Positions 17,150 through 63,763 of a stretch of DNA of 64,000 bases are shown here, in pieces. Every line of letters begins with the position of its first letter. The stretch's first letter is position 1. The stretch lies in sequence record PP445229.1; one strand, 5' to 3'. Under the pieces are notes generated by a model. That model had not been told where the DNA came from and did no database searches. It was given only the letters and a program-made list of their open reading frames with translations. The translations under genes and the position numbers were made by a program. Source of the stretch: Escherichia phage EC.W2-6.

Positions 17150-17173
17150 GTTATAGCTTAGCCACCTCCGGGT
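17150..17173 (+). terminator. intrinsic terminator after SSB gene
   Basis: AGCCACC-TCCG-GGTGGCT then TTTTTT. Confidence 0.7.
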
Positions 17174-17195
17174 GGCTTTTTTCGTTGGAGACAAC

Positions 17196-17546
17196 ATGCA
17201 AAACACATTAAGTGATAACTTAGGGTTTATCGTTTTCTCAGCTCTTGTATTCTTTGGTGGTATGAAGTTTAACGAATATCAAACAGACAGCAGTAATCTG
17301 GACAAAGAGAAGCACCAGCAAGAGTTAGAGATTGAAAGAAGTAGAGCAGCTGATGAAGTTGCTCAGAGAGTTCTTACCGGTTTATCTAACTGGAAGAAGA
17401 ACACAGAAACCGTTTATAAAGAGATGCATTATGAGAAAACTAAACCAGTTTTTTATGATGTCTGCGCTAGTGATGACTATGTCCGCATGTTCAATGATCG
17501 ACAGCAGCAGGCAATCAATGCCCTTACCAACAAACCTAAAAGCTGA
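17196..17546 (+). CDS. candidate i-spanin (Rz-like)
   Basis: N-terminal TM helix then coiled-coil; overlaps next ORF in another frame. Confidence 0.45.
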   Translation: MQNTLSDNLGFIVFSALVFFGGMKFNEYQTDSSNLDKEKHQQELEIERSRAADEVAQRVLTGLSNWKKNTETVYKEMHYEKTKPVFYDVCASDDYVRMFNDRQQQAINALTNKPKS

Positions 17547-17690
17547 ATGCAGGGTTGACTTACCTTTTTTAGAGAGTGCTCAAGGAAAAGCACTAGCCAC
17601 TACGTTGGAGTGGTATCAGGACCAGTACACAGAATGTGCTGCCAATCACAATGGATTGTTAGAAGCTCTGAAAGAGCGTGGAATAGAATA

Positions 17691-17691
<1 letters not shown>
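17431..17691 (+). CDS. candidate o-spanin lipoprotein (Rz1-like)
   Basis: MRK...ALVMTMSAC lipobox-like signal; begins in +1 frame inside the preceding ORF. Confidence 0.4.
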
Positions 17692-31045: not shown

Positions 31046-32080
31046 TTATTGTATACTCCTGAATATCTTTCTAGCATCTAATATTGGAATACTTAACCCG
31101 AGGGCACCACCCCCTCCTAAATCATATTGACTACTCCAAGAGTAAATCATCCTTCCGAAACCTGTACCGAAAGAAGAGCCATTCATCATGTGAGATCTTG
31201 TGTGTTGAAAATACCAACCACTAGCCTTGCCTCTTATTGCTCCTGCTCCGTAAGATAGTGGTATCATTGGATAGGCCAGAGATGTGTTACCGCCACTCAT
31301 AGGCATAAATCCCTCAACACTAAAAGGGGTTCTATATGTAGAAAATACACACTGAGACCCATTTGGAGAGAAGATATTTAAACCACCATTGTGGGTTGGT
31401 ACTCCAGAACCATCACAGAAGACGGCAATTCTAACACCACCAATGTATCCTGTTTGGTTTGTGTTACCATTATCATGAGACCTGTTCTGGTACACATAAA
31501 CAACCCTATTGGATGGATTGTATAGCAGCCCTGCTCCACCGTTACTCCAATTCGCGTAGACAGTTGCTCGGCTCATATCAAAACCACCAATATCTGGTAT
31601 TTGAAGAGAACCATTTATGTCACCCTCCCAAGCCCAAATACATTGACCAACAACCCCAGAATCGGATATTGAGAAATAGTCAGCAGAGTTGGAGAATGTG
31701 ATTCCATAATTCCTGTTAGCTCTAGGCCATATTTGATACACATTAAAAGCCATATCAAATACCCAACCGTTTACATTATAGTCCATAGTAACTCTGAAGG
31801 TTGAGTTATTAATAACAGATATATCCGTTATCCAATACACATCAGACGTTACGTTAGGAGGTATGTATCTCTCCCAAACAACAGACCCTGTTGGAACTAC
31901 AACTATCTGACCACTACCATCCCAACCACTTATAGGCAAGTCACAGGTATTTCCACTAAAAGAGAAATTCCCACTGACTCTATTTCTGAGTTGAGGGAAT
32001 GTGCTACCACTATCGATGTAAATATCAGCAGGTGCCGCTGGACCCGGACCAACCGGGCGTGTCCATATTCCATATGCCAT
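31046..32080 (-). CDS. virion/tail-associated protein
   Basis: Late-operon ORF with GGGAG RBS; Gly/Asn/Ser-rich. Confidence 0.5.
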   Translation of the reverse strand: MAYGIWTRPVGPGPAAPADIYIDSGSTFPQLRNRVSGNFSFSGNTCDLPISGWDGSGQIVVVPTGSVVWERYIPPNVTSDVYWITDISVINNSTFRVTMDYNVNGWVFDMAFNVYQIWPRANRNYGITFSNSADYFSISDSGVVGQCIWAWEGDINGSLQIPDIGGFDMSRATVYANWSNGGAGLLYNPSNRVVYVYQNRSHDNGNTNQTGYIGGVRIAVFCDGSGVPTHNGGLNIFSPNGSQCVFSTYRTPFSVEGFMPMSGGNTSLAYPMIPLSYGAGAIRGKASGWYFQHTRSHMMNGSSFGTGFGRMIYSWSSQYDLGGGGALGLSIPILDARKIFRSIQ

Positions 32081-32081
32081 G

Positions 32082-33050
32082 TTACCAACTCCCTATTCTT
32101 ATGCGAAGAGTTCCACTCCCATCATAAAAATCTATTCTATTACCATTCATCCACAACTGAGAACCACCTGTACCACCCATAACAAAATCACCACCAACAG
32201 TAAGTCTCCAGTTAGAACCCCACATAGAACCAGCAGTGATTTTATCCGCTGATAAGTTCTGAATCTGAGCATTGGAGATAGATACGTTATCAATCTGTGC
32301 CCATTGGATCCTAGCGTTGGCAATCTGAGCAGTTGTGATGTTGACGTTCTTTATGTCAGCGAATTCCATCCTAGCTCGCCCACCCTCAAATACGAAGGGG
32401 GTATTCCCAGAGCTGCCATCACCAACAATAAATTTGTTAGCTGTTACTTGGAATTGACTGTTTGTTCCGTTGTTAGTTAACTTGACCCCAGCATATCTTC
32501 CGTTGACTGTAGAGTTAACACCCCACGTAGCTTCATACTCAGAGAGTTTCATATACTGAGAAAGGCTTCCGTTGATATTTTGCAGTTCTGTCTGAACAAG
32601 AGCAATCTCTTGACCTTGATCGTTAACAATACCTTCTACTGTCTGAATTTTAGTTGTGTTACCTTCGATGCTGGTCTTAAAACCAGATACAGTGCTTTCT
32701 AGCTTCACAGGGGGTTGAACAGAATTATCCCAAATGTCCTCAGTGGACAGGTTCCCCATCTGGGTTTGGATATCTGCAATAGCTGTTTCTATCTCTGTAG
32801 TAATTCTATTCTCAAGCTCATCAAATTGTAGATTCATTGCATTAAGAGCTTTAATACGAACATCAATCTCTTCGTGAATTTCATCTATAGCTTGGAACAT
32901 TTGGTTAGTAGCTGTGCTAACTTTTTGTAATTCATCATACACGGCTACGTTATATGTTTCTGTGTCCTGTACATTATTGAGAAACCCAACGTTGTACGGG
33001 AGTGTGGTGTTGTTGCGACCAGTGTTCTTACGAAAACCACCTGCACCCAT
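32082..33050 (-). CDS. tail-fibre-like protein
   Basis: Coiled-coil N-half then beta-rich repeats (ISNAQIQNLSADKI); start at internal ATG 33050 with GGAGGA RBS. Confidence 0.5.
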   Translation of the reverse strand: MGAGGFRKNTGRNNTTLPYNVGFLNNVQDTETYNVAVYDELQKVSTATNQMFQAIDEIHEEIDVRIKALNAMNLQFDELENRITTEIETAIADIQTQMGNLSTEDIWDNSVQPPVKLESTVSGFKTSIEGNTTKIQTVEGIVNDQGQEIALVQTELQNINGSLSQYMKLSEYEATWGVNSTVNGRYAGVKLTNNGTNSQFQVTANKFIVGDGSSGNTPFVFEGGRARMEFADIKNVNITTAQIANARIQWAQIDNVSISNAQIQNLSADKITAGSMWGSNWRLTVGGDFVMGGTGGSQLWMNGNRIDFYDGSGTLRIRIGSW

Positions 33051-33093
33051 AAGTTCCTCCAAAACAATAAAAGGGGCACGAAGCCCCTTGTTG

Positions 33094-36000
33094 TTATCTC
33101 CGCCCGCCAACAGCAAACTCTATCGTTAAACCATTGATAGCAGCATTACTATTAACATCATTATCTATAACATTATAGAAAAGGTATGGATGGTTCAGTC
33201 TCACCGAGACATGCCTGTCAACACCGATCGTATATGTCTTAGATGTGTGTGGGTGTCCATATTCATTTGAGAATTGACTACCACCAGCTTCAAATATGTA
33301 AGTACCTGAACCAGTTGTCTGAGGTCGGAACCTGTTAATATGCTTCTGATTCCACTCATTCGTCACATTATCAAAATCTATACCAGTCCTCTCCAACCTC
33401 ATTTCCAGAGGCTTCTCTATAACAACATCATTTAGCCTGTCATAGAAGTAATCAAGAGCACCTACATCCACTTGATAGAATCCCTTCAAGAATGAACCTA
33501 CTATCGTAACCCTCTGTCTAAAGTTTGTTGCATCCTTTCTCCAAACGAGTTCTTTAATAGATGGGTCATCCCAAGTGATTTCTTGGAAGTCAGACCAGAT
33601 TGGACCTCTTTCTAAAACAGGAGGATCAACCAGACCAATACACTGAGCATATGGGATAGTACGGAATGACCAAGTATCAAACTCGTAGTTCCATACAGCA
33701 GCTTTAGTACAAGCGAAGCTTTCTTTTGGCTCTCCCGGACCTACGTACAGAACCCAAACTTCTTTCTTATCCTGATGCAAATGCACTCGAGTTGCTAGAG
33801 GGTTAACCAGACATACCTCGTTAATCAGCATATTCTTAACACGGTTAGATGCAATTGACTTCTTAGTTGCACCGTTGTGTAAGATTACATCGTTCTGAGT
33901 AACTACGAAGTGACTACCTTCTACTTCAACCACACACTCAGGAGCAAGGATACCAGAGTCGTTAAAGAGCTTCTTGAACATTAGAGGTTGGTACGTGTTA
34001 TTAGTCGGAGAACCAATATACGTTTCAAACTCTGTATAAACGAACAAGTAATCTTTAAGAGGTAGGATATCAATCAAGCTACCATTAGAATCTGCTAAGT
34101 CAATGTAACCAGCATACCCATTCTCTAGAGCCTGAGTCTGCCCTACGATGTTAGAAGCTAAGTCCGAAGACACAACTCGATCATAGGCAAAGTCATCCCA
34201 CAGTGTAGGAGCCTTGTTCTCATTGGCAAAGTTAGACCAACGAAGACGAAGCGGGTAGTTAGTGGTAACACCAGAAGCATTAGCCTCTCTCATATTCAGA
34301 GCAAAAAGACGGTTGTTAAAAGATCTTACTCTCTCACATTTCCAGTTAAACTTCTTGACTGAAGGGTTTCCATCACTATCCACCACTGTTTGCTCACCCC
34401 ACCCCGGAAGGTCTACAAAGTATTCTGATTCGAATTCTTTTACCTGAGGAGTTTCATAGTGAGTTGTAGCAACTGCACAGTTAGAGATAACAGCGTGATA
34501 CCAAGGGTAGTCATCAAAAGCATCGTAATCCTTCTGAGTCATCTGACTGACAGTACATGTTACGTTAATCTCTCCTTTACGAAGAGCAACCAGTTTGATA
34601 GATTTACCAGTGACTGAAGTTGTAGAAACATAACCAGTTTTATCAACAGACCACTGATAAGAGTACTCACCTTCTGGAGAAGCTGTGGCTGTAATGACAA
34701 CCTCTTCACCAACATCAAGAGAAGCGCTGACAATATCTAAGGTTACAGATGACAAAGGGGTTGCCAGTAAAGAAGCTCTTGCAAAACCTTCAATGTCATT
34801 CACGTTAGAGTAGTCATAGAAGTTATTACCTTCGTACATCCCTGACGTATCAATACCGGATGTAGGCTCAGCAAAATAAACCGTCTCTTCACTTTCAGGA
34901 GGAGTTACTACTTCTTCCTCTTGAGTTTCTACTGACTCTGACACAGGAGCAGCAAATGCCATAGAACTTGTTCTCATTGTTCTTCCAGCTAAATCTACAC
35001 GTACAGTACAGACAGCAACCCTGTTGCCTTCTTCAGTGGTAGCTGTAATCTCAGTAAAGCCAGCAAGTAAAGCGTTGATCGTCCCTTGTGTGCTAGTCCC
35101 TGATACTGTTGCAATATTTGGATTAGAAGAGGTCCAAGTAATATTTTGATTAGGGGCGTTAGCAGGAGAAAGGGTAGCAGTTAAGATATACTGAGAACCT
35201 CTACTCACAATAACATCTGACTGGCTTAAAGAGATACTATCAATCTGAGGGATGGAAACAACCTCACAAGAAGCAGTCTTAGTTCCGTTATCAGCAGTGA
35301 TTGTTACATTACCTTCTCCATTCGCTGTAATGACAGCAGTTAAAGAATTGGCGTTAGGGGTTACGGATACAATAGAAGCGTTATTGCTGGACCAAGTTAC
35401 AGGAGTCTTGCCAGTAACAGCCGTGAGAGTAGTAGTCCCTCCTTTACGAATTGTAACAGTGTCTTGACTCAAGAAGATGCCTGAATCACCGTCGATGATA
35501 TTAACAGCAATCTGAGCCACTACGGATTCGTTGGCAGTAGAGATAGTTACTACAAGATTACCTTCTTTCTCAAAAGATGTTAGAGTAGCAAGTTTAGAGT
35601 CACTAGGGTCTACCGTAATACTTCCATAGGATGAGTTACTAACCTCCCAAATAAGATCAGTATTGTTAGCATCAGCAGGGAGAAGAGAAACCTCTAGATT
35701 CTTGGTCTGATTGAAGTTCATTGAGATAGTTGATTCTTTAGGAACGATCTGAGAAACAACTGGATAAATCTTAATTGAGGCAGAAGCCTTCTTAGTGACT
35801 GTAGCAACCTTACGGCTAATATCAGTCAAGCTTTCATCTGTCAGTTTATATAACTTCTTATCCGTACCTACAACAAGAAAGCTATTACCTGCGCTATAAT
35901 AATCGAAAGGCATAGAAACGAAAGACAGAGGGGTTAAATCCTTATCTTCATCTACATAAGAAAGAGGGGCATTGCCCCCCGTCTTAAATACTCTCTGCTC

Positions 36001-52836: not shown

Positions 52837-52864
52837 TTGACAGGTTTTTCCTTTATTATATAGT
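52837..52864 (+). promoter_or_regulatory. sigma70-type early promoter
   Basis: TTGACA, 16-nt spacer, TATAGT; spacer TTTTCCTTTAT shared with promoter at 55090. Confidence 0.5.
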
Positions 52865-52908
52865 TGCGATTGTAATTTGTAGTTTTCATCAACCATAAGG
52901 AATATCAA

Positions 52909-53781
52909 ATGTCTAAAGTAGCAATTAACCACTTGAACAAAGCAAACGAAAGCCTTTCCTCTTTAGGCTTAACCGTTGGTAGTCCTGATGCGTGGATGGA
53001 AAACGAAAGCGCACGTAAAGGATTCAAAAACTCTGTAATGCTGGCTTGCTTGATCATTAATTCTACTGCGAACGCCTTACAGTGTGAAGATGAAAGCACG
53101 TTCAAAGAGAATGGCTTTACCGATATACAGGACGCTATCAACTGTTACATTCAGGCAAATTTGGATAGCTGGAATCAGAAAGATTGGCCTGAGTCATGCC
53201 GTGATGTGAAAGCTGAATTATCCCGCTTGTCTGTCATGGTTGAAGCATGGAACAAGAAAAACAAGAAACAACCAATCAAGCCTACTGTTGCAAGTAAGAT
53301 TATGAAGTCTGTTAATCTGGCAAGTTATGCACTGGTTGCAGCTATCGGTGTTAGTGCACTGGTCACGTCTCTTTCTGATAAGGCTATCGCTAGTCCTGCT
53401 CCTGCAACTGATGCGGCTAGTGTCTTCTCTAGTTCCATCAATAAGGGTTGGATGATTTGCAACGGTGCGGATAGTGACGGCAATAATATCGTGCTAAAGA
53501 TGAAATTTAGCAACGTAACAAATGATGGAGTTCTCTTTCAATCTAAAACGTTAGATAATCAGCCTAACAGTGATCTAGTTCTCAAGCGTACTGATAACGA
53601 TGCGGATATGGTGACATTTGGCACTGTACAACGTTATGAAGACGTTAAAGCTGTAACCAACCTAGTGAGCTATGGCCCGATCAATGAGTCGATGATCGCC
53701 ACCACGGTTTACAATAACGCTGATAATGCTGTTTATACTGTTCACGTTAATTTAGCCAACTGCATTAAGGCTAGTAAGTAA
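52909..53781 (+). CDS. early protein, unknown function
   Basis: First ORF downstream of a sigma70-like promoter; central hydrophobic helix. Confidence 0.5.
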   Translation: MSKVAINHLNKANESLSSLGLTVGSPDAWMENESARKGFKNSVMLACLIINSTANALQCEDESTFKENGFTDIQDAINCYIQANLDSWNQKDWPESCRDVKAELSRLSVMVEAWNKKNKKQPIKPTVASKIMKSVNLASYALVAAIGVSALVTSLSDKAIASPAPATDAASVFSSSINKGWMICNGADSDGNNIVLKMKFSNVTNDGVLFQSKTLDNQPNSDLVLKRTDNDADMVTFGTVQRYEDVKAVTNLVSYGPINESMIATTVYNNADNAVYTVHVNLANCIKASK

Positions 53782-53805
53782 ATAACCTATTTTGGGAGTG
53801 TAAAA

Positions 53806-54069
53806 ATGGCTATCAAAGAAATTAAGTTATCTAATGGCTTTTCTTGTTTTGTTGGTGGAAGCTCTATCCTGTTTAATACACTTGATGGTCAGATAACGTT
53901 ACCTGTTATCACTTTTTGCAGGATGGAATATCAGCCTCTTAAAGATTGGCTAGCCTTTGCTGATTTTGAAATTACCCGTGAAGACTTCAAATCAATCTAT
54001 ATTGACGGTGATTTATCACTGGCTAACCTGCTCAATCATGGACTAATTAAGGGTGATATTAATGGGTAA
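53806..54069 (+). CDS. early hypothetical protein
   Basis: ORF with GGGAG RBS. Confidence 0.45.
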   Translation: MAIKEIKLSNGFSCFVGGSSILFNTLDGQITLPVITFCRMEYQPLKDWLAFADFEITREDFKSIYIDGDLSLANLLNHGLIKGDING

Positions 54070-54316
54070 TGAAACAATCGCACTGATTGACACGCACAAT
54101 TACGGTGGCGTTACGCTCTCCTTTGATGAGTCAATCGACTACACTTATTTGTCCTTTCTAACTAAGGGTGAAATAAAAACTATTAGCTTTCCTGCGGTCT
54201 ATTTAGTACAGGATTATCTCACTATTGGGAAGTATTTAGCCCAACGCGGGATTCTTCTGTCGCTGGAAGAAGTGGAACAGGTTAGCGTAGCATTTTTTGG
54301 CGAGGATAGCAACTAG
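54062..54316 (+). CDS. early hypothetical protein
   Basis: ATG at 54062 preferred over GTG 54053. Confidence 0.4.
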   Translation: MGNETIALIDTHNYGGVTLSFDESIDYTYLSFLTKGEIKTISFPAVYLVQDYLTIGKYLAQRGILLSLEEVEQVSVAFFGEDSN

Positions 54317-54420
54317 TGATTCATGATTATTTTTGGCGTTGCTTGTTCGTTGTTACAGTGGCGTTATTCGTCGCTGATATGCTTTATTCTTATATTCTCT
54401 AACTATAGGTGATTATTATC

Positions 54421-54786
54421 ATGGGTATTATCAAATTTGTAGTAAAAGTATTCGTGGGCTTCTTCCTTGTCGTTCTCCTGCTGGGTGTGCTCCTATCGGC
54501 TATGGGTAGCGTTAAGGCTGCAACATTCTCCCCTGCTACGGTGGAAGGTTTACAGTGCACCTATTTGATAGAAAATTATGATACCGGTAAAAAGTCACCT
54601 AAAGTTATTATTTTGCATGTAAATGATTTCGATCATGTGCAATCAGATAGTAAAACTATTCTACTGGTAAATGAAACTACTGGTAAACAAATCACGGTCG
54701 ATCACTTGATGCGCTCATCGTTAACGCTCTTTGATGAGTCCATGAATGAAATGGCATCCGGTAATGGTCAATGTGTAAATCCATAG
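54421..54786 (+). CDS. early secreted/membrane protein
   Basis: N-terminal signal/TM (FVVKVFVGFFLVVLLLGVLLSA); followed by terminator. Confidence 0.45.
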   Translation: MGIIKFVVKVFVGFFLVVLLLGVLLSAMGSVKAATFSPATVEGLQCTYLIENYDTGKKSPKVIILHVNDFDHVQSDSKTILLVNETTGKQITVDHLMRSSLTLFDESMNEMASGNGQCVNP

Positions 54787-54863
54787 GCTTAATCTTTCTC
54801 CTGTATTGTGCCGTAGTCATGCCTATGGTCATAATTTATCTGATGCTTTAAATCCTTCCTGTA

Positions 54864-54890
54864 AGCCTCCTAGTGAGGCTTTTCTCTTTT
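54864..54890 (+). terminator. intrinsic terminator
   Basis: AAGCCTC-CTAGT-GAGGCTT then TTCTCTTTT. Confidence 0.6.
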
Positions 54891-55089
54891 ATGAGGTGAT
54901 TGTATGCCTTACTCCCTTTTAGCTCGTTGTGGTGCGTTACAGGCCGCTTATTATTGCTTTACAAGCCGTTTTCTATGATGTATCACGCGCCCCCGCTCTT
55001 TTACCTCCTGATTTCTTCCGGTGTCCTACCGACAATAAAATAAATTCCTTTATAAAACAGTGAGATGAAAAATAATTTGAAAAAAGGGT

Positions 55090-55117
55090 ATTGACATGAT
55101 TTTCCTTTATAGTAATA
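55090..55117 (+). promoter_or_regulatory. sigma70-type early promoter
   Basis: TTGACA, 16-nt spacer, TAATAT. Confidence 0.55.
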
Positions 55118-55296
55118 TGAATCCCGTAGTAAGCAGTAAGTAACAACAAGTAGTAAAAACTCCTCGATAGGTGATTAGCATCACGGTAAAAGGCTTCAAC
55201 GGGGAGCGGTAGGAATACCGACAGTAAGACGCACAATGAAGGTGCTACGCTCTTTAAAAATCAGGCTAGAAAGTGAAAATATTCTTAAAAAGAGTA

Positions 55297-55325
55297 TTGA
55301 CACCGAAAACAGCCTGATTCATAAT
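55297..55325 (+). promoter_or_regulatory. sigma70-type early promoter
   Basis: TTGACA, 17-nt spacer, CATAAT; near-duplicate of promoter at 55599. Confidence 0.55.
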
Positions 55326-55443
55326 AAGCACTCAGTCAGCGATGACTTAAAAAATCCCGCTCTTTAAAAACTTATCATCTTGCCTTTTCGCATAGATTCA
55401 CGCGAGATAAGGGAAAAGAATAAAAGAAGATGATAAAAAAGAG

Positions 55444-55472
55444 ATTGACAAGCTAACACGATGTGTTAAGCT
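55444..55472 (+). promoter_or_regulatory. possible sigma70-type promoter (weak -10)
   Basis: TTGACA with poor -10 (AAGCTG) at 17 nt. Confidence 0.25.
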
Positions 55473-55598
55473 GTAAATGCTACACCGCTCTTTAACAATA
55501 TGAATCATAAGTTAAGCATCACCGCTTAATCTTCAATCAAATAAAGCTGATTGATATATCCTCCCAATAGCGGGAACGACGAAAAAGATTAAAAAGTG

Positions 55599-55627
55599 GT
55601 TGACAGCGAAAACAACATGATTCATAA
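55599..55627 (+). promoter_or_regulatory. sigma70-type early promoter
   Basis: TTGACA, 17-nt spacer, CATAAT. Confidence 0.55.
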
Positions 55628-56549
55628 TGAGCACTCACTAAGCAAATCACCGCTTCAGTGAAAAGCGTAACAACGGCTAACAGTTGCATAGTGTGAGAAA
55701 GCACACTGATAGATTTACCGCTCTTTAATAATTTAAACATTCTCCTATATCGGTTGAATATGTTAGATGATAATAACCATCGGATAACATACCAGATAAA
55801 ACGGTGTAAGATTCTCTAAACTATCAGAGAAAACAATCTTATAATCCCTTGCTGGAAACGTCACCACTGATAAACGGATTCATTGAGTGTACGCAAAGAT
55901 TTAAGCTAATCGCCCACGGTTAAGGGTAGCGGCGGTCATCGCTAACAAGGCGCTACAGTGAAAGAAGTTAATCAGGGTAGGCAAGCCCGAAGAATTAACG
56001 CTCAATTGAGAGCGGCGGGGAGTGGTTAAAAAGTGGCAAATTGCTATTTAACAATAAGGTTTAGTGTGAACGTTTACGATGTGAATGATTTGAGGCCACT
56101 ATTGATGGCGTACATAGTCAGTTTATGTAGTAAACTTGCCGAAAGATATAAAACGTCAGAACATTAGACGGTCAATGACTCTTTCACAATAGCATCCCGT
56201 TGTGGGCGATGGCTAGTGATTGAGAGTTGATACAAAAGGATAGGCGAGAGCGAAAGCAAAGTAGACGATATTGCCGACGGTTACAATAAACGTAACTAAT
56301 TAGAGTCGGACGCACTGCCTTATTGTGATGATTGATCATCGCTATCAGGTCGGCTTCGTTTATAGCGACTAATTAAAGATACCAGATGAAACATCACGGA
56401 TAAGGGGGCGGCAAGGTTAACTCCTGATAAGACCGCCCCGCTTACCTATAACTACTTAACAACGAGTGGTTATAGTTAAGTTAATAGTGACTTAAACAAG
56501 CTCATAGAGAGCGGGGCAATAGCGCCCTTACAAGTGAAAGGTGAATATC

Positions 56550-61634: not shown

Positions 61635-61988
61635 ATGAGAAGCATGGTTAAAGATTGGGTAACTAAATCAGGTCTTCGTGCTGTGATTATGCACATGAAC
61701 GACTCCCACTTTTGTGGATATGTAGAGCTACCAGACAGCTTAAAACATAAAAACTTCACCGGATATAACGGGAATGAAGAAGTTTGTTATGTAAGTGTTC
61801 ATGGTGGTGTCACATGGCAAGATACCCTTGAAGAGATGGATGGTTTAGATACAATCGGATTTGATTGTGCCCATGCAGGTGATAAGACACGGTTCAACCC
61901 TAACGGGGTTCCAAGAACAGAAACGTTCTGCATCAACGAATGCGAACAAATGGCTGAACAACTAAGAGATCTCGAATCAAATGTCTAA
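61635..61988 (+). CDS. hypothetical protein
   Basis: Internal ATG with GAGGTG RBS preferred over listed 61500 start. Confidence 0.4.
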   Translation: MRSMVKDWVTKSGLRAVIMHMNDSHFCGYVELPDSLKHKNFTGYNGNEEVCYVSVHGGVTWQDTLEEMDGLDTIGFDCAHAGDKTRFNPNGVPRTETFCINECEQMAEQLRDLESNV

Positions 61989-62157
61989 GCAAACAATCAA
62001 ACATACGCAAGCTGGTTACTCTTATATCAACTCTCCTTGTTGTGGTGCTCGTGTGAATCTGGTTAAGGAAGAGGTTCGTATCGTTCAGCGTGGCGCTACT
62101 GTTGTTCGTTCATGCTGTGTCTGTGGTAATGACATTTTTATCAAAGGTAAAGTATGA
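61981..62157 (+). CDS. small zinc-ribbon protein
   Basis: 58 aa, CCGAR...CCVCG; overlaps both neighbours. Confidence 0.3.
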   Translation: MSKQTIKHTQAGYSYINSPCCGARVNLVKEEVRIVQRGATVVRSCCVCGNDIFIKGKV

Positions 62158-62405
62158 AAAACTTCCAAGCTGCACCAATAACTAAAGTGATCGAAGTTGA
62201 CGGTGTAATGATGACTGTTCCTCTGAACACTCGTTACATTGCAATTGACAAGATGGGCTATGTATGGGCTTGGAAGATCAAGCCTAGTTATAACGCACTG
62301 TTTGATGAGTTTGTTTGTACTGGTACTTACAGTCCTACATTCTTGGGTTTATTTGGAGAGTTTGATGGTAAGCATAAAATCATCACTCTCCCTGCTTGTG
62401 CTTGA
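62154..62405 (+). CDS. hypothetical protein
   Basis: ORF, ATGA overlap. Confidence 0.4.
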   Translation: MKNFQAAPITKVIEVDGVMMTVPLNTRYIAIDKMGYVWAWKIKPSYNALFDEFVCTGTYSPTFLGLFGEFDGKHKIITLPACA

Positions 62406-62412
62406 GGTTATT

Positions 62413-62577
62413 ATGTTCAAGTGGTTTAAACGTTTCTTCCATCTCCATGATTGGGAGACAATAAAAGAAATTCGTTTACACATATATAATGAGATTGGTC
62501 AAATAGAAGACACAGGTACTCGTTATATACTTCGATGTAAAACATGTGGTCATATCACCAAGCGAGATATGATCTAA
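62413..62577 (+). CDS. small zinc-binding-like protein
   Basis: 54 aa with GAGGT RBS; C-terminal CKTCGH. Confidence 0.35.
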   Translation: MFKWFKRFFHLHDWETIKEIRLHIYNEIGQIEDTGTRYILRCKTCGHITKRDMI

Positions 62578-62585
62578 ATAATTCT

Positions 62586-62661
62586 GCGCTCTTAGCTCAA
62601 TGGATAGAGCAGTAGCCTTCTAAGCTATTGGTTACAGGTTCGAGTCCTGTAGGGCGCACCA
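62586..62661 (+). tRNA. tRNA-Arg (anticodon UCU), CCA encoded
   Basis: Cloverleaf by hand: 7-bp acceptor GCGCTCT/AGGGCGC, D-arm GCTC/GAGC, anticodon stem GTAGC/GCTAT with loop CTTCTAA, T-arm ACAGG-TTCGAGT-CCTGT, then ACCA. Confidence 0.85.
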
Positions 62662-62801
62662 CATTTAGGGCTAGTATGGGTGCGGCACCAGAGTTAGTGT
62701 ATCCCTGTTGAGGCAAGTGCTTTTATAACAGTGGGAATTACTTTCTTAGTGAGCTTCTGGTTCGATTCCAGATAGTCCACCAAATCTAATAGGAGGTAAT
62801 T

Positions 62802-63101
62802 ATGAGTTGGGGTGGTGTAATATCCTTAATCTGTATCTTCCTTGTCTGTATAGCCCTTACAGGCTGCGTACAGAGTCGTCCTGATGGATGGTGTGCAGTA
62901 GCAGTGGAAGGTGTTTGTGTTTCTCGCTGGCATAAAGGTAAGAAGGTTCCTTCTGGTGAAATTGATATGCGCTGGAACGGAGCAACCTGCTCTAATGCTA
63001 ACCCTTCTATCAACGAAGAGAAATCTACACCGGATAATGTTGTGATTGATACAGCGTTGTGGTGTGGTGGCTCTGTAACAACAACCGGTAAGGAGTGGTA
63101 A
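62802..63101 (+). CDS. lipoprotein (Cys-rich)
   Basis: Signal peptide with lipobox IALTGC; TAGGAGGT RBS. Confidence 0.5.
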   Translation: MSWGGVISLICIFLVCIALTGCVQSRPDGWCAVAVEGVCVSRWHKGKKVPSGEIDMRWNGATCSNANPSINEEKSTPDNVVIDTALWCGGSVTTTGKEW

Positions 63102-63102
63102 T

Positions 63103-63351
63103 ATGACAGCTCATTATTGGAATACAAAGAAGCTTCTTGAGGAGATGGCTGGGGGTAGTAGAGTACAGCTAATCTCTATGCTTCGAATGGATGCTCGCTC
63201 TTTACGCTTTCAAGTGAAGATTGGTAACTTCAGCGATGGTCTTTATTATACCTTGAAGGAAAGAATTAAGAAAACTCACTTCATCATGTACGGAATCAAA
63301 CCGAGAACGTACGTTAACTACATGTATTGGGATACATGCTACGATAGTTGA
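63103..63351 (+). CDS. hypothetical protein
   Basis: ORF abutting previous stop. Confidence 0.4.
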   Translation: MTAHYWNTKKLLEEMAGGSRVQLISMLRMDARSLRFQVKIGNFSDGLYYTLKERIKKTHFIMYGIKPRTYVNYMYWDTCYDS

Positions 63352-63358
63352 GGCTATT

Positions 63359-63580
63359 ATGAAATTAGATTCTAAACAATCACTTAAAACTGTTGAACTA
63401 TCCACCCTTCCAAATGGAAGTATTTTTGGTCATGATAAACACTTCTGGATTAAAACAGACTACTTGAACGATGGGTATATCACCTGTGTCAATCTTTGGA
63501 ATGGCTCAGTGGATGGCTACCGCCCTAGTGCAAAAGTAGTCCCTCAGCCTGATGCAAAAGCTATAGGTTTGGTCTACTAA
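63359..63580 (+). CDS. small protein, paralog family member 5
   Basis: HDKHFWIKTDYLNDGYITCVNLWNGSVDGY parallels 60704..60922. Confidence 0.45.
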   Translation: MKLDSKQSLKTVELSTLPNGSIFGHDKHFWIKTDYLNDGYITCVNLWNGSVDGYRPSAKVVPQPDAKAIGLVY

Positions 63581-63589
63581 GGAGTTCAT

Positions 63590-63763
63590 ATGAGCTGTTA
63601 TGGTGGAGGTGAAGTTTATGATGACGATGATATGGAATCTAATGGGGAATGCCCTGATTGCGGGTGTGAGACGTTTGATGGTGTATCAGTATATCCTGCC
63701 TGTAGTTACTCACCAGTGATCTGTAAAACATGTGGTGATCAGCCATGTGACCAATCTTGTTAA
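63590..63763 (+). CDS. small Cys-rich acidic protein
   Basis: 57 aa with four CxxC-like pairs; AAGGAG RBS. Confidence 0.3.
   Translation: MSCYGGGEVYDDDDMESNGECPDCGCETFDGVSVYPACSYSPVICKTCGDQPCDQSC

What the first reader, a model, noticed from the sequence alone, without database searches (positions are those of the whole stretch)
62802..63101. Early lipoprotein downstream of the tRNA gene: superinfection-exclusion candidate
The ORF has a clean lipoprotein signal (lipobox LTGC) and a Cys-rich mature part, with a strong RBS. Small phage lipoproteins expressed early are known to block the phage's own receptor, as T5 Llp does.
Basis: inference. Interest (0 to 1): 0.45.

Follow-up and report, generated by a model that had tools for sequence, protein, structure and literature searches.

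The report
Phage lipoprotein that blocks LptD receptor
This small early gene of a phiEco32-like (Kuravirus) coliphage encodes a homologue of Rtp45, a phage lipoprotein shown to bind the LPS-export channel LptD from the periplasm and stop further phage attachment, and the same genome also encodes a homologue of the LptD-binding tail protein, which suggests that LptD is the still-unidentified final receptor of these phages.

Summary
ORF 62802..63101 (+) encodes 99 aa, with AGGAGG 5 nt before a unique ATG, lipobox LTGC (Cys22) and four further Cys in the mature part. It lies about 140 nt downstream of tRNA-Arg(TCT).

The window is 100% identical to Escherichia phage EC.W8-1 (Kuravirus). The gene sits in the sigma70-driven early cluster. 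Its phiEco32 orthologue, phi32_106, is already annotated "putative phage lipoprotein".

The superinfection-exclusion idea is supported, but through a different homologue than T5 Llp. The protein is a full-length member of Pfam PF24052 (E=9e-36). Its only meaningful PDB relative, by sequence (E=7e-14) and by fold (TM 0.79), is Rtp45. Rtp45 is the exclusion lipoprotein of siphophage Rtp, solved bound to LptDE-LptM (9RPS).

The late ORF 31046..32080 (-) sits next to the tail-needle gene. It is a DUF6453 homologue of Rtp44 and of the Oekolampad receptor-binding protein, solved on LptDE (9RPT). So this podovirus carries both halves of the siphovirus LptD module, 31 kb apart.

Most likely the lipoprotein blocks LptD against the phage's own tail-tip protein. 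Binding, lipidation, exclusion and virion incorporation of the DUF6453 protein are all untested. I found no paper linking Kuravirus to LptD.

Verdict: a new member of a known kind, of moderate interest.

The parts
62802..63101 (+). Gene for a 99-aa prolipoprotein of the Rtp45 / PF24052 family. Signal peptide is residues 1-21 and the lipobox is LTGC (Cys22). The family-invariant Cys pair is C31/C39. A Kuravirus-specific Cys pair, C63/C88, flanks a variable insertion. The C-terminal GKEW motif is conserved.
   Evidence: -: the ORF.
- PF24052, E=9.3e-36, profile positions 1-80 of 80.
- 9rps_D, E=6.7e-14.
- alignments and invariant residues.
- model pLDDT 81.8; Foldseek finds only 9rps_D, TM 0.79 normalised to the target.
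62791..62797 (+). Shine-Dalgarno sequence AGGAGGT, 5 nt upstream of the ATG.
   Evidence: Read directly.
62586..62661 (+). tRNA-Arg(TCT), immediately upstream in the same early transcription unit. In phiEco32 it lies 22 nt from the lipoprotein gene.
   Evidence: -: Rfam tRNA, 72 bits.
- phiEco32 layout.
31046..32080 (-). Late gene for a 344-aa DUF6453 protein, at the SU10 gp19 position. It is homologous to Rtp44 and to the LptD-binding receptor-binding protein of phage Oekolampad. It is the proposed cognate tail-tip receptor-binding protein that the lipoprotein would block.
   Evidence: -: tblastn with Rtp44, E=7e-15.
- 9rpt_C, E=1.7e-9 over 280 aa.
- PF20051, E=1.2e-24.
- model pLDDT 85; the only significant Foldseek hit is 9rpt_C, E=6.7e-13, TM 0.81.
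32082..33116 (-). Tail needle gene (SU10 gp18 equivalent) with a lambda-J-type 'Phage_Tail_Tip' domain. It is the likely attachment site of the DUF6453 protein, as the C-terminus of gpJ is in siphoviruses.
   Evidence: -: PF09327, E=1.1e-26.
- weak tblastn match to the C-terminus of Rtp43 (gpJ), E=2e-4.
- SU10 gp18 is the tail needle / tail tip fibre protein.
52837..55628 (+). Four strong sigma70-like promoters at the head of the early gene cluster that contains the lipoprotein gene: 52837-52864, 55091-55118, 55297-55325 and 55600-55628.
   Evidence: -: promoter scan.
- The arrangement matches the one-plus-three early promoters described for SU10 and phiEco32 (PMC4281155; PMC8948821).

Best explanation
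**What the gene encodes.** The product is a small outer-membrane lipoprotein of the Rtp45 family.

**Proposed mechanism.**
1. It is made from the host-RNA-polymerase-driven early operon.
2. It is exported, lipidated at Cys22 and sorted by Lol to the inner leaflet of the outer membrane.
3. There it binds the periplasmic rim of the LPS translocon LptD, between LptE and LptM. An edge beta-strand stabilised by the C31-C39 disulfide makes the contact.
4. It sends a long beta-hairpin up the LptD lumen. In Kuraviruses this hairpin is enlarged by a C63-C88-bounded insertion.
5. The hairpin displaces extracellular loop EL4, so the phage's own tail-tip protein (the DUF6453 protein encoded next to the needle gene) can no longer engage LptD.

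**Consequences.** Infected cells exclude superinfecting phage, and progeny are not wasted on envelope debris.

**Shown here.**
- Family membership, conserved residues and fold.
- Position in the early cluster.
- Presence of the RBP homologue in the same genome.

**Shown by others, for Rtp45 only.** LptDE binding and the EL4 displacement mechanism.

**Inferred.**
- The Kuravirus protein still binds LptD.
- Kuraviruses use LptD as terminal receptor.
- The DUF6453 protein sits on the needle tip.
For: **The lipoprotein belongs to the Rtp45 family.**
- Pfam PF24052 scores 122 bits against a cut-off of 27, E=9e-36, full length.
- phmmer against the PDB finds 9rps_D at E=6.7e-14. 9RPS is SfLptDEM-Rtp45 (PMC12685063).
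- In 95 family members C31, C39, G52 and G60 are invariant. The lipobox G-C and the C-terminal E-W are at least 90% conserved.
- The AF2 model gives strands 31-35 and 38-44 and a long hairpin 52-64/87-98, with the insertion at its tip.
- Foldseek against the PDB returns only 9rps_D (prob 1.0, TM 0.79 normalised to the target).

**A partner RBP homologue is in the same genome.**
- ORF 31046..32080(-) is DUF6453, E=1e-24. Rtp44 belongs to the same family at E=1e-113.
- It hits the LptDE-bound Oekolampad RBP 9rpt_C by sequence (E=1.7e-9) and by fold (E=6.7e-13, TM 0.81).
- It follows the needle gene, which carries a gpJ-type tail-tip domain.

**The two families travel together.**
- In Rtp, mEp021, pSf-2, CEB_EC3a, A127 and 26174I the lipoprotein gene directly precedes a DUF6453 gene.
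- The two families have near-matching taxonomic distributions in 50,697 phage records: 385 and 326 records.
- The seven experimentally LptD-dependent BASEL siphoviruses share this RBP module (PMC8594841). Two of them, Bas14 and Bas20, are among my DUF6453 hits.

**Timing and alternative roles.**
- The gene lies in the early cluster.
- A separate Rz/Rz1-type spanin pair exists at 17172-17691.
Against: - No experiment exists on any Kuravirus lipoprotein.
- The signal peptide has no basic residue in its n-region.
- The gene is not adjacent to the RBP homologue, so the linkage that defines the siphovirus module is absent. Klebsiella Weberviruses show the same unlinked layout.
- The DUF6453 protein is only about 25% identical to Rtp44, so it could have changed receptor.
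- That protein was not among the 34 proteins found by mass spectrometry of SU10 particles, although its neighbours gp16-18 and gp20-24 were (PMC4281155 Table 2).
- It is not mentioned in the SU10 cryo-EM paper or its supplement.
- Kuravirus-resistant mutants reported so far lose O-antigen, not LptD (PMC11990801). LptD is essential, however, and invisible to knockout screens.
- Divergence of the lipoprotein and of the DUF6453 protein across Kuraviruses is not tightly coupled. Examples are IMEP8 at 93% versus 72% and LAMP at 74% versus 88%.
- The 24-aa insertion sits exactly in the hairpin that does the work in Rtp45, so the details may differ.
Confidence: 0.62

Rival explanations
1. Heterotypic exclusion only. 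The lipoprotein binds LptD, but the Kuravirus itself does not use LptD. The gene serves to shut out competing LptD-dependent siphoviruses (Rtp-like, Dhillonvirus) that infect the same O-antigen-bearing hosts.
For: - The homology to Rtp45 is the same as above.
- LptD-predicted Dhillonvirus phages and Gordonclarkvirinae were isolated on the same O16-positive host (PMC11990801).
- The gene is unlinked to the tail genes and sits among early host-takeover genes.
- gp19 was not detected in SU10 virions.
Against: - It leaves unexplained why a conserved DUF6453 RBP homologue sits next to the tail-needle gene in essentially all Kuraviruses.
- It also leaves unexplained why that protein is among the more variable late proteins, ranging from 100% down to 44% identity, as RBPs typically do.
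Confidence: 0.13
2. Same mechanism, different target. The Kuravirus pair (DUF6453 protein plus lipoprotein) has diverged to recognise and block another outer-membrane beta-barrel, not LptD.
For: - The RBP homologue is only about 22-25% identical to the LptD-binding RBPs.
- The lipoprotein carries a 24-aa disulfide-bounded insertion in the functional hairpin, and that insertion varies between Kuraviruses.
- Distant DUF6453 members occur in Klebsiella, Salmonella, Yersinia, Aeromonas and Pseudomonas phages whose receptors are unknown.
Against: - The N-terminal 45 mature residues are the best conserved part, at 43-50% identity to the siphovirus proteins. They include the strand that pairs with LptD 318-323 in Rtp45 and the disulfide.
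- Among tested coliphages this RBP family correlates with LptD without exception (PMC8594841; preprint 10.64898/2026.04.02.716166).
Confidence: 0.12
3. Host-takeover role. By plugging LptDE the lipoprotein slows LPS and O-antigen export, changing the surface of the infected cell. This could reduce primary adsorption, for example, rather than blocking a protein receptor.
For: - Kuraviruses depend on O-antigen for infection (PMC11990801).
- Rtp45 inserts a hairpin into the LptD lumen.
- The gene lies in the early cluster.
Against: - Rtp45 was co-overexpressed with LptDE in viable E. coli, and no LPS-export defect is reported.
- Pre-existing surface LPS would persist through a short lytic cycle. 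The BASEL authors make the same argument for O-antigen.
Confidence: 0.05
4. Lysis protein: an o-spanin (Rz1-like outer-membrane lipoprotein).
For: It is a small, Cys-containing lipoprotein encoded by a phage.
Against: - There is no match to spanin families in Pfam at E<=10.
- There is no adjacent i-spanin.
- It lies in the early cluster.
- The phage has its own Rz-like gene with an overlapping lipobox ORF at 17172-17691.
Confidence: 0.01

Closest known systems
Rtp45, the superinfection-exclusion lipoprotein of Escherichia phage Rtp (Drexlerviridae); Pfam PF24052; PDB 9RPS chain D
   Same: - Homologous over the whole length: lipobox, RPDGWC...GVC motif with the disulfide pair, VP(A/S)GE(I/V)D.R motif and C-terminal GSV..GKEW.
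- About 43% identity over 63 residues.
- Same predicted fold, with a long beta-hairpin.
- The phage also carries a DUF6453 (Rtp44-type) protein.
   Different: - It is in a podovirus with a prolate head, not a siphovirus.
- It is encoded in the early operon after a tRNA, 31 kb from the RBP homologue, instead of immediately upstream of it beside gpJ.
- A 24-aa insertion closed by an extra Cys pair (C63/C88) sits at the hairpin tip.
- The signal peptide has an uncharged n-region.
- There are no experimental data.
T5 Llp, the lytic-conversion lipoprotein that blocks FhuA
   Same: It is an early-expressed small outer-membrane lipoprotein that binds the periplasmic face of the phage's own receptor and abolishes RBP binding. 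This is functional analogy only.
   Different: - No detectable sequence similarity. Llp is absent from the PDB search even at E<=10.
- The target is different: the TonB-dependent transporter FhuA.
- The mechanism is different: long-range allostery rather than steric loop displacement (PMC12685063).
Cor of T1 / phi80 / N15 (FhuA-directed exclusion protein)
   Same: It is a small lipoprotein-type exclusion factor encoded in the gpJ-proximal RBP locus of small siphoviruses, with a similar signal peptide.
   Different: - Only the signal peptide matches the family profile (18 bits).
- There is no blastp similarity in the mature part.
- It targets FhuA.
phi32_106 of phiEco32 and the 'putative lipoprotein' of SU10, LAMP and FS2B
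   Same: These are direct orthologues, at 76-97% identity, in the same position after tRNA-Arg.
   Different: - phiEco32 has the shorter 93-aa version of the insertion.
- phiEco32 lacks the 115-nt tRNA-like spacer.
- None of these has been studied beyond annotation.

Membership tests
Rtp45 / Pfam PF24052 'Phage lipoprotein family' | Profile HMM match above the curated threshold over the full domain | tested here: met
   122.1 bits against a cut-off of 27, E=9.3e-36, profile positions 1-80 of 80. PHROG 4281 matches at E=1e-34.
Rtp45 / Pfam PF24052 'Phage lipoprotein family' | Type II signal peptide with a lipobox Cys | tested here: met
   LTGC with Cys22. G21 and C22 are at least 90% conserved in 95 members. 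Caveat: there is no Lys or Arg in the n-region.
Rtp45 / Pfam PF24052 'Phage lipoprotein family' | Conserved disulfide pair (Cys30-Cys38 in Rtp45) framing the strand that pairs with LptD 318-323 | tested here: met
   C31 and C39 are invariant in 95 sequences. They lie in predicted strands 31-35 and 38-44. The disulfide itself was not tested.
Rtp45 / Pfam PF24052 'Phage lipoprotein family' | Fold similar to the solved Rtp45 structure | tested here: met
   Foldseek top and only hit is 9rps_D, prob 1.00, TM 0.79 normalised to the target, rmsd 6.4 A. The model is of moderate quality (pLDDT 82, pTM 0.44).
Rtp45 / Pfam PF24052 'Phage lipoprotein family' | Gene immediately upstream of a DUF6453 RBP gene next to gpJ (siphovirus locus architecture) | tested here: not met
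   The DUF6453 homologue is present but 31 kb away, on the other strand. Klebsiella Weberviruses are also unlinked. This is a feature of the locus, not of the protein family.
Rtp45 / Pfam PF24052 'Phage lipoprotein family' | Binds LptDE-LptM at the periplasmic face and displaces EL4 | not testable with these tools
   This is known only for Rtp45 (PMC12685063). No complex prediction tool is available, and the authors report that AF3 complexes were wrong even for Rtp45.
Rtp45 / Pfam PF24052 'Phage lipoprotein family' | Confers exclusion of the cognate phage when expressed | not testable with these tools
   This requires a wet-lab experiment.
T5 Llp family | Sequence or structural homology to Llp | tested here: not met
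   No Llp chain appears among the PDB sequence hits at E<=10 or among the Foldseek hits at E<=10.
Cor (T1/phi80/N15) | Homology of the mature protein to Cor | tested here: not met
   blastp against T1 Cor gives no hit at E<=100. The weak HMM score of 18 bits is due to the signal peptide.
o-spanin (Rz1-like) | Paired with, or embedded in, an i-spanin gene in the lysis cassette | tested here: not met
   There is no i-spanin nearby and the neighbours have no Pfam hits. A separate Rz-like gene with an overlapping lipobox ORF lies at 17172-17691.

The most novel reading that the evidence does not exclude
- Kuraviruses (prolate C3 podoviruses such as phiEco32 and SU10) use the essential LPS translocon LptD as their terminal receptor.
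- The overlooked DUF6453 protein (SU10 gp19 position) rides on the tip of the gpJ-like tail needle and binds LptD. This triggers needle release and nozzle formation.
- The early lipoprotein is its cognate exclusion factor.
- The whole three-part module (gpJ tip, RBP and exclusion lipoprotein) has been exchanged between siphoviruses and podoviruses and then split between late and early operons.
Probability: 0.5. Interest if true: 0.65.

Novelty: new member of a known kind. Interest (0 to 1): 0.5.

Why it matters
**On its own the gene is ordinary.** It is an annotated 'putative lipoprotein' belonging to a Pfam family whose founding member now has a solved mechanism.

**The value lies in what it points to.**
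- The receptors of Kuraviruses are described as not yet identified (PMC10743462). What the tail needle touches is an open point in the SU10 infection model.
- An Rtp45 homologue and an Oekolampad/Rtp44-type RBP homologue in the same genome turn that question into a simple experiment.
- These phages are frequently isolated and are candidates for therapy against APEC and UPEC strains.
- An essential, conserved receptor such as LptD would affect how resistance evolves and how cocktails are designed, because of cross-exclusion with LptD-dependent siphoviruses.
- It would also show receptor-recognition and exclusion modules moving across tail morphotypes.

Tried and rejected
**Alternative identities rejected.**
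- T5 Llp homology: no sequence or fold hit.
- Cor homology: only the signal peptide matches.
- o-spanin: a separate Rz/Rz1-like pair exists elsewhere.
- The designed armadillo-repeat proteins in the PDB search are repeated weak matches, each domain i-Evalue above 60, to the low-complexity C-terminal 35 residues. I discarded them as artefacts.

**Searches that returned nothing.**
- NCBIfam has no model for either protein.
- The neighbouring small ORFs (61635-63763) have no Pfam hits.

**Papers that could not be read.**
- The phiEco32 primary papers (PMC3275717, PMC2587145) and the original Rtp paper (PMC1367250) are not held.
- The early classification and the original Rtp45 phenotype therefore rest on secondary descriptions.

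**Literature searches for a Kuravirus-LptD link.**
- Searches for any Kuravirus-LptD link, for DUF6453 or for PF24052 found nothing relevant.

**Co-variation.**
- Co-variation between lipoprotein and DUF6453 alleles across Kuraviruses was examined only from tblastn identities and is not tight.
- It neither supports nor refutes coupling.

**tRNA-like spacer.**
- The spacer was folded and scanned.
- It is not a confident tRNA.

Full report
**Observation**

- The window is 100% identical over the tested 3 kb to Escherichia phage EC.W8-1 (PQ030848) and EC.W14-3. These are Kuraviruses of the Gordonclarkvirinae, that is, phiEco32-like podoviruses.
- ORF 62802..63101 (+) encodes 99 aa.
- AGGAGGT lies at 62791-62797, 5 nt before the ATG. 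In-frame TAA and TAG codons directly upstream leave no alternative start.
- The N-terminus MSWGGVISLICIFLVCIALTGC contains a canonical lipobox with Cys22. Residue +2 is Val, so outer-membrane sorting is expected from the +2 rule (established knowledge).
- The mature 78-aa part has four more Cys: 31, 39, 63 and 88.
- tRNA-Arg(TCT) lies at 62586-62661.
- One blemish: no Lys or Arg in the n-region.
- The ORF is under purifying selection against phiEco32, with dN 0.06 and dS 0.20 over codons 1-62.
- It is one of only two lipobox-bearing ORFs among 131 six-frame ORFs of at least 60 aa.

**What the protein is**

- Pfam places it, full length, in PF24052 'Phage lipoprotein family' at E=9.3e-36. PHROGs puts it in phrog_4281, function unknown.
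- Against all PDB sequences the only genuine hit is 9rps_D 'Phage lipoprotein' at E=6.7e-14.
- 9RPS is the cryo-EM structure of Shigella LptDE-LptM with Rtp45, the superinfection-exclusion lipoprotein of siphophage Rtp (PMC12685063).
- That paper describes the Rtp45 mechanism:
  - It binds the periplasmic side of LptD near strands 5-8, sandwiched between LptE and LptM.
  - Residues 30-35 form a beta-sheet with LptD 318-323.
  - It has a Cys30-Cys38 disulfide.
  - It sends a long hairpin up the LptD lumen that pushes loop EL4 outwards by up to 20 A, making RBP binding impossible.
- An alignment of 95 family members shows C31, C39, G52 and G60 invariant. The lipobox, G29, G37, G46, V49, E53, D55, R57, G90, E98 and W99 are at least 90% conserved.
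- Relative to Rtp45 the Kuravirus proteins carry an insertion of variable length (93-, 99- and 108-aa versions exist) between RY.G.. and GGSV. It is bracketed by an extra Cys pair, C63/C88.
- An AlphaFold2 model (pLDDT 81.8) has strands 31-35, 38-44 and 47-50 and a long hairpin 52-64/87-98, with the insertion at the tip.
- Foldseek against the PDB finds only 9rps_D (prob 1.0, TM 0.79 normalised to the target). Everything else has E>2.
- T5 Llp does not appear in either search. T1 Cor shares only its signal peptide.

**Context and timing**

- The phiEco32 orthologue is phi32_106, 'putative phage lipoprotein'. It lies 22 nt after tRNA-Arg, in the leftward cluster of small genes. SU10, LAMP and FS2B carry similar annotations.
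- Four strong sigma70-like promoters sit at 52837, 55091, 55297 and 55600 (+). No phage-sigma promoter motif TAATGTATA occurs between them and the gene.
- This reproduces the 'one plus three' early promoters described for SU10 and phiEco32, where CDS 69-125 are the early genes (PMC4281155; PMC8948821).
- Early expression is therefore a good inference, not a measurement.
- The phage has a separate Rz-like gene with an overlapping lipobox ORF at 17172-17691. A lysis role for the 62802 gene is therefore unnecessary.

**The partner**

- In siphoviruses Rtp45 is encoded directly upstream of Rtp44, the RBP, beside gpJ. I therefore searched the Kuravirus for Rtp44.
- tblastn gave E=7e-15 at window 31136-31975 (-).
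- That ORF (31046..32080, 344 aa) has these matches:
  - Pfam DUF6453/PF20051 at E=1.2e-24, the family of Rtp44 (E=1e-113).
  - By sequence, the LptDE-bound RBP of phage Oekolampad, 9rpt_C, at E=1.7e-9 over 280 residues.
  - By fold, its AF2 model (pLDDT 85, pTM 0.87) has 9rpt_C as the only significant PDB neighbour, at E=6.7e-13, TM 0.81 and rmsd 3.9 A.
- It lies between two genes:
  - The tail-needle gene (32082..33116) carries Pfam Phage_Tail_Tip at E=1e-26 and weakly matches the C-terminus of Rtp43/gpJ.
  - The SLT ejection-protein gene is on the other side.
- This is the SU10 gp19 position.
- In six siphovirus loci the lipoprotein gene is immediately followed by a DUF6453 gene. In Klebsiella Weberviruses the two are unlinked, as here.
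- The two families have very similar distributions among 50,697 phage records, at 385 and 326 records. Each includes roughly 90 Kuravirus-type records.
- The seven BASEL siphoviruses shown genetically to depend on LptD share this RBP module (PMC8594841). A later screen found the family specifically associated with LptD (preprint).

**Interpretation**

- The most economical reading is that this podovirus owns the complete LptD recognition and exclusion module of small siphoviruses: a gpJ-type tip, a DUF6453 RBP and an Rtp45-type lipoprotein.
- The lipoprotein gene has moved into the early operon. This makes functional sense, because the receptor must be blocked before lysis.
- I put about 0.6 on the full mechanism and near-certainty on family membership.

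**Weak points**

- No experiment exists on any Kuravirus homologue.
- The DUF6453 protein is only about 25% identical to LptD binders.
- It was not detected in SU10 particle proteomics, although all its neighbours were.
- It is never mentioned in the SU10 structure paper or its supplement.
- GenBank calls it 'membrane protein/moron', 'hypothetical' or even 'exonuclease'.
- Reported Kuravirus-resistant mutants lose O-antigen. lptD is essential, however, and would be missed by knockout screens.
- Divergence of the two proteins across Kuraviruses is not tightly coupled.

**Novelty**

- The gene is a new, podoviral member of a known family, already annotated as a lipoprotein.
- I found no paper connecting Kuraviruses with LptD, Rtp45, DUF6453 or PF24052.
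- A 2023 review states that SU10's receptors are not identified.
- The 2025 BASEL paper discusses Cor/Llp-type factors only for porin-targeting phages. It models Kuravirus entry through long and short fibres.
- The finding is therefore ordinary as a gene but useful as a pointer to a testable receptor hypothesis.

Noticed in passing
window 62667-62782 (+): A tRNA-like element of about 115 nt lies between tRNA-Arg and the lipoprotein gene. It has a T-arm GGTTCGATTCC, an acceptor 3' strand and CCA. Default ARAGORN and Rfam do not call it. Relaxed ARAGORN calls 'tRNA-Asn(gtt) with a 22-nt intron'. Its folding z-score is -2.1. It is 92-100% conserved in 29 Kuravirus records including SU10, but absent from phiEco32. 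It could be a decayed or unusual tRNA, or a processing signal.
   Followed up: partly
window 31046..32080 (-): This DUF6453 protein is homologous to the LptD-binding RBPs of Rtp and Oekolampad. It is encoded right after the tail-needle gene. It is mis-annotated or unannotated in GenBank ('membrane protein; moron', 'exonuclease', 'hypothetical') and absent from SU10 proteomics and structure papers. Within the genus it varies from 100% down to 44% identity.
   Followed up: yes
window 32082..33116 (-): The tail needle protein carries a lambda-J-type Phage_Tail_Tip domain and weakly matches the C-terminus of Rtp43 (gpJ). This suggests the podovirus needle and the siphovirus central fibre tip are related.
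   Followed up: partly
window 17172..17691 (+): An Rz-like i-spanin gene (17172..17546) overlaps a +1-frame ORF (17332..17691) that has a lipobox (TMSAC). This ORF is a likely Rz1-type o-spanin, and it does not appear in the Bas90 feature table for this region.
   Followed up: partly
window 63099-63105: The stop codon of the lipoprotein gene (TAA, 63099-63101) is 1 nt from the ATG of the next ORF (63103..63351). The Shine-Dalgarno of that ORF (AAGGAG) lies inside the last codons of the lipoprotein gene, which suggests translational coupling. The downstream small ORFs have no Pfam hits.
   Followed up: partly
L004 (Klebsiella phage vB_KpnS-VAC11) 2995-3222; H39/H124 (FZ10): Klebsiella Weberviruses also encode a PF24052 lipoprotein, among replication genes. 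It is unlinked, by about 10 kb, from their DUF6453 protein. Some records name the lipoprotein 'PDDEXK-like family protein'. This hints that LptD may be a Webervirus receptor too.
   Followed up: no
window 9281, 16252, 16324, 26503, 43333: There are five exact copies of the phiEco32 gp36-sigma promoter element TAATGTATA, against 0.6 expected by chance. They mark middle and late promoters, and none lies in the early cluster.
   Followed up: no
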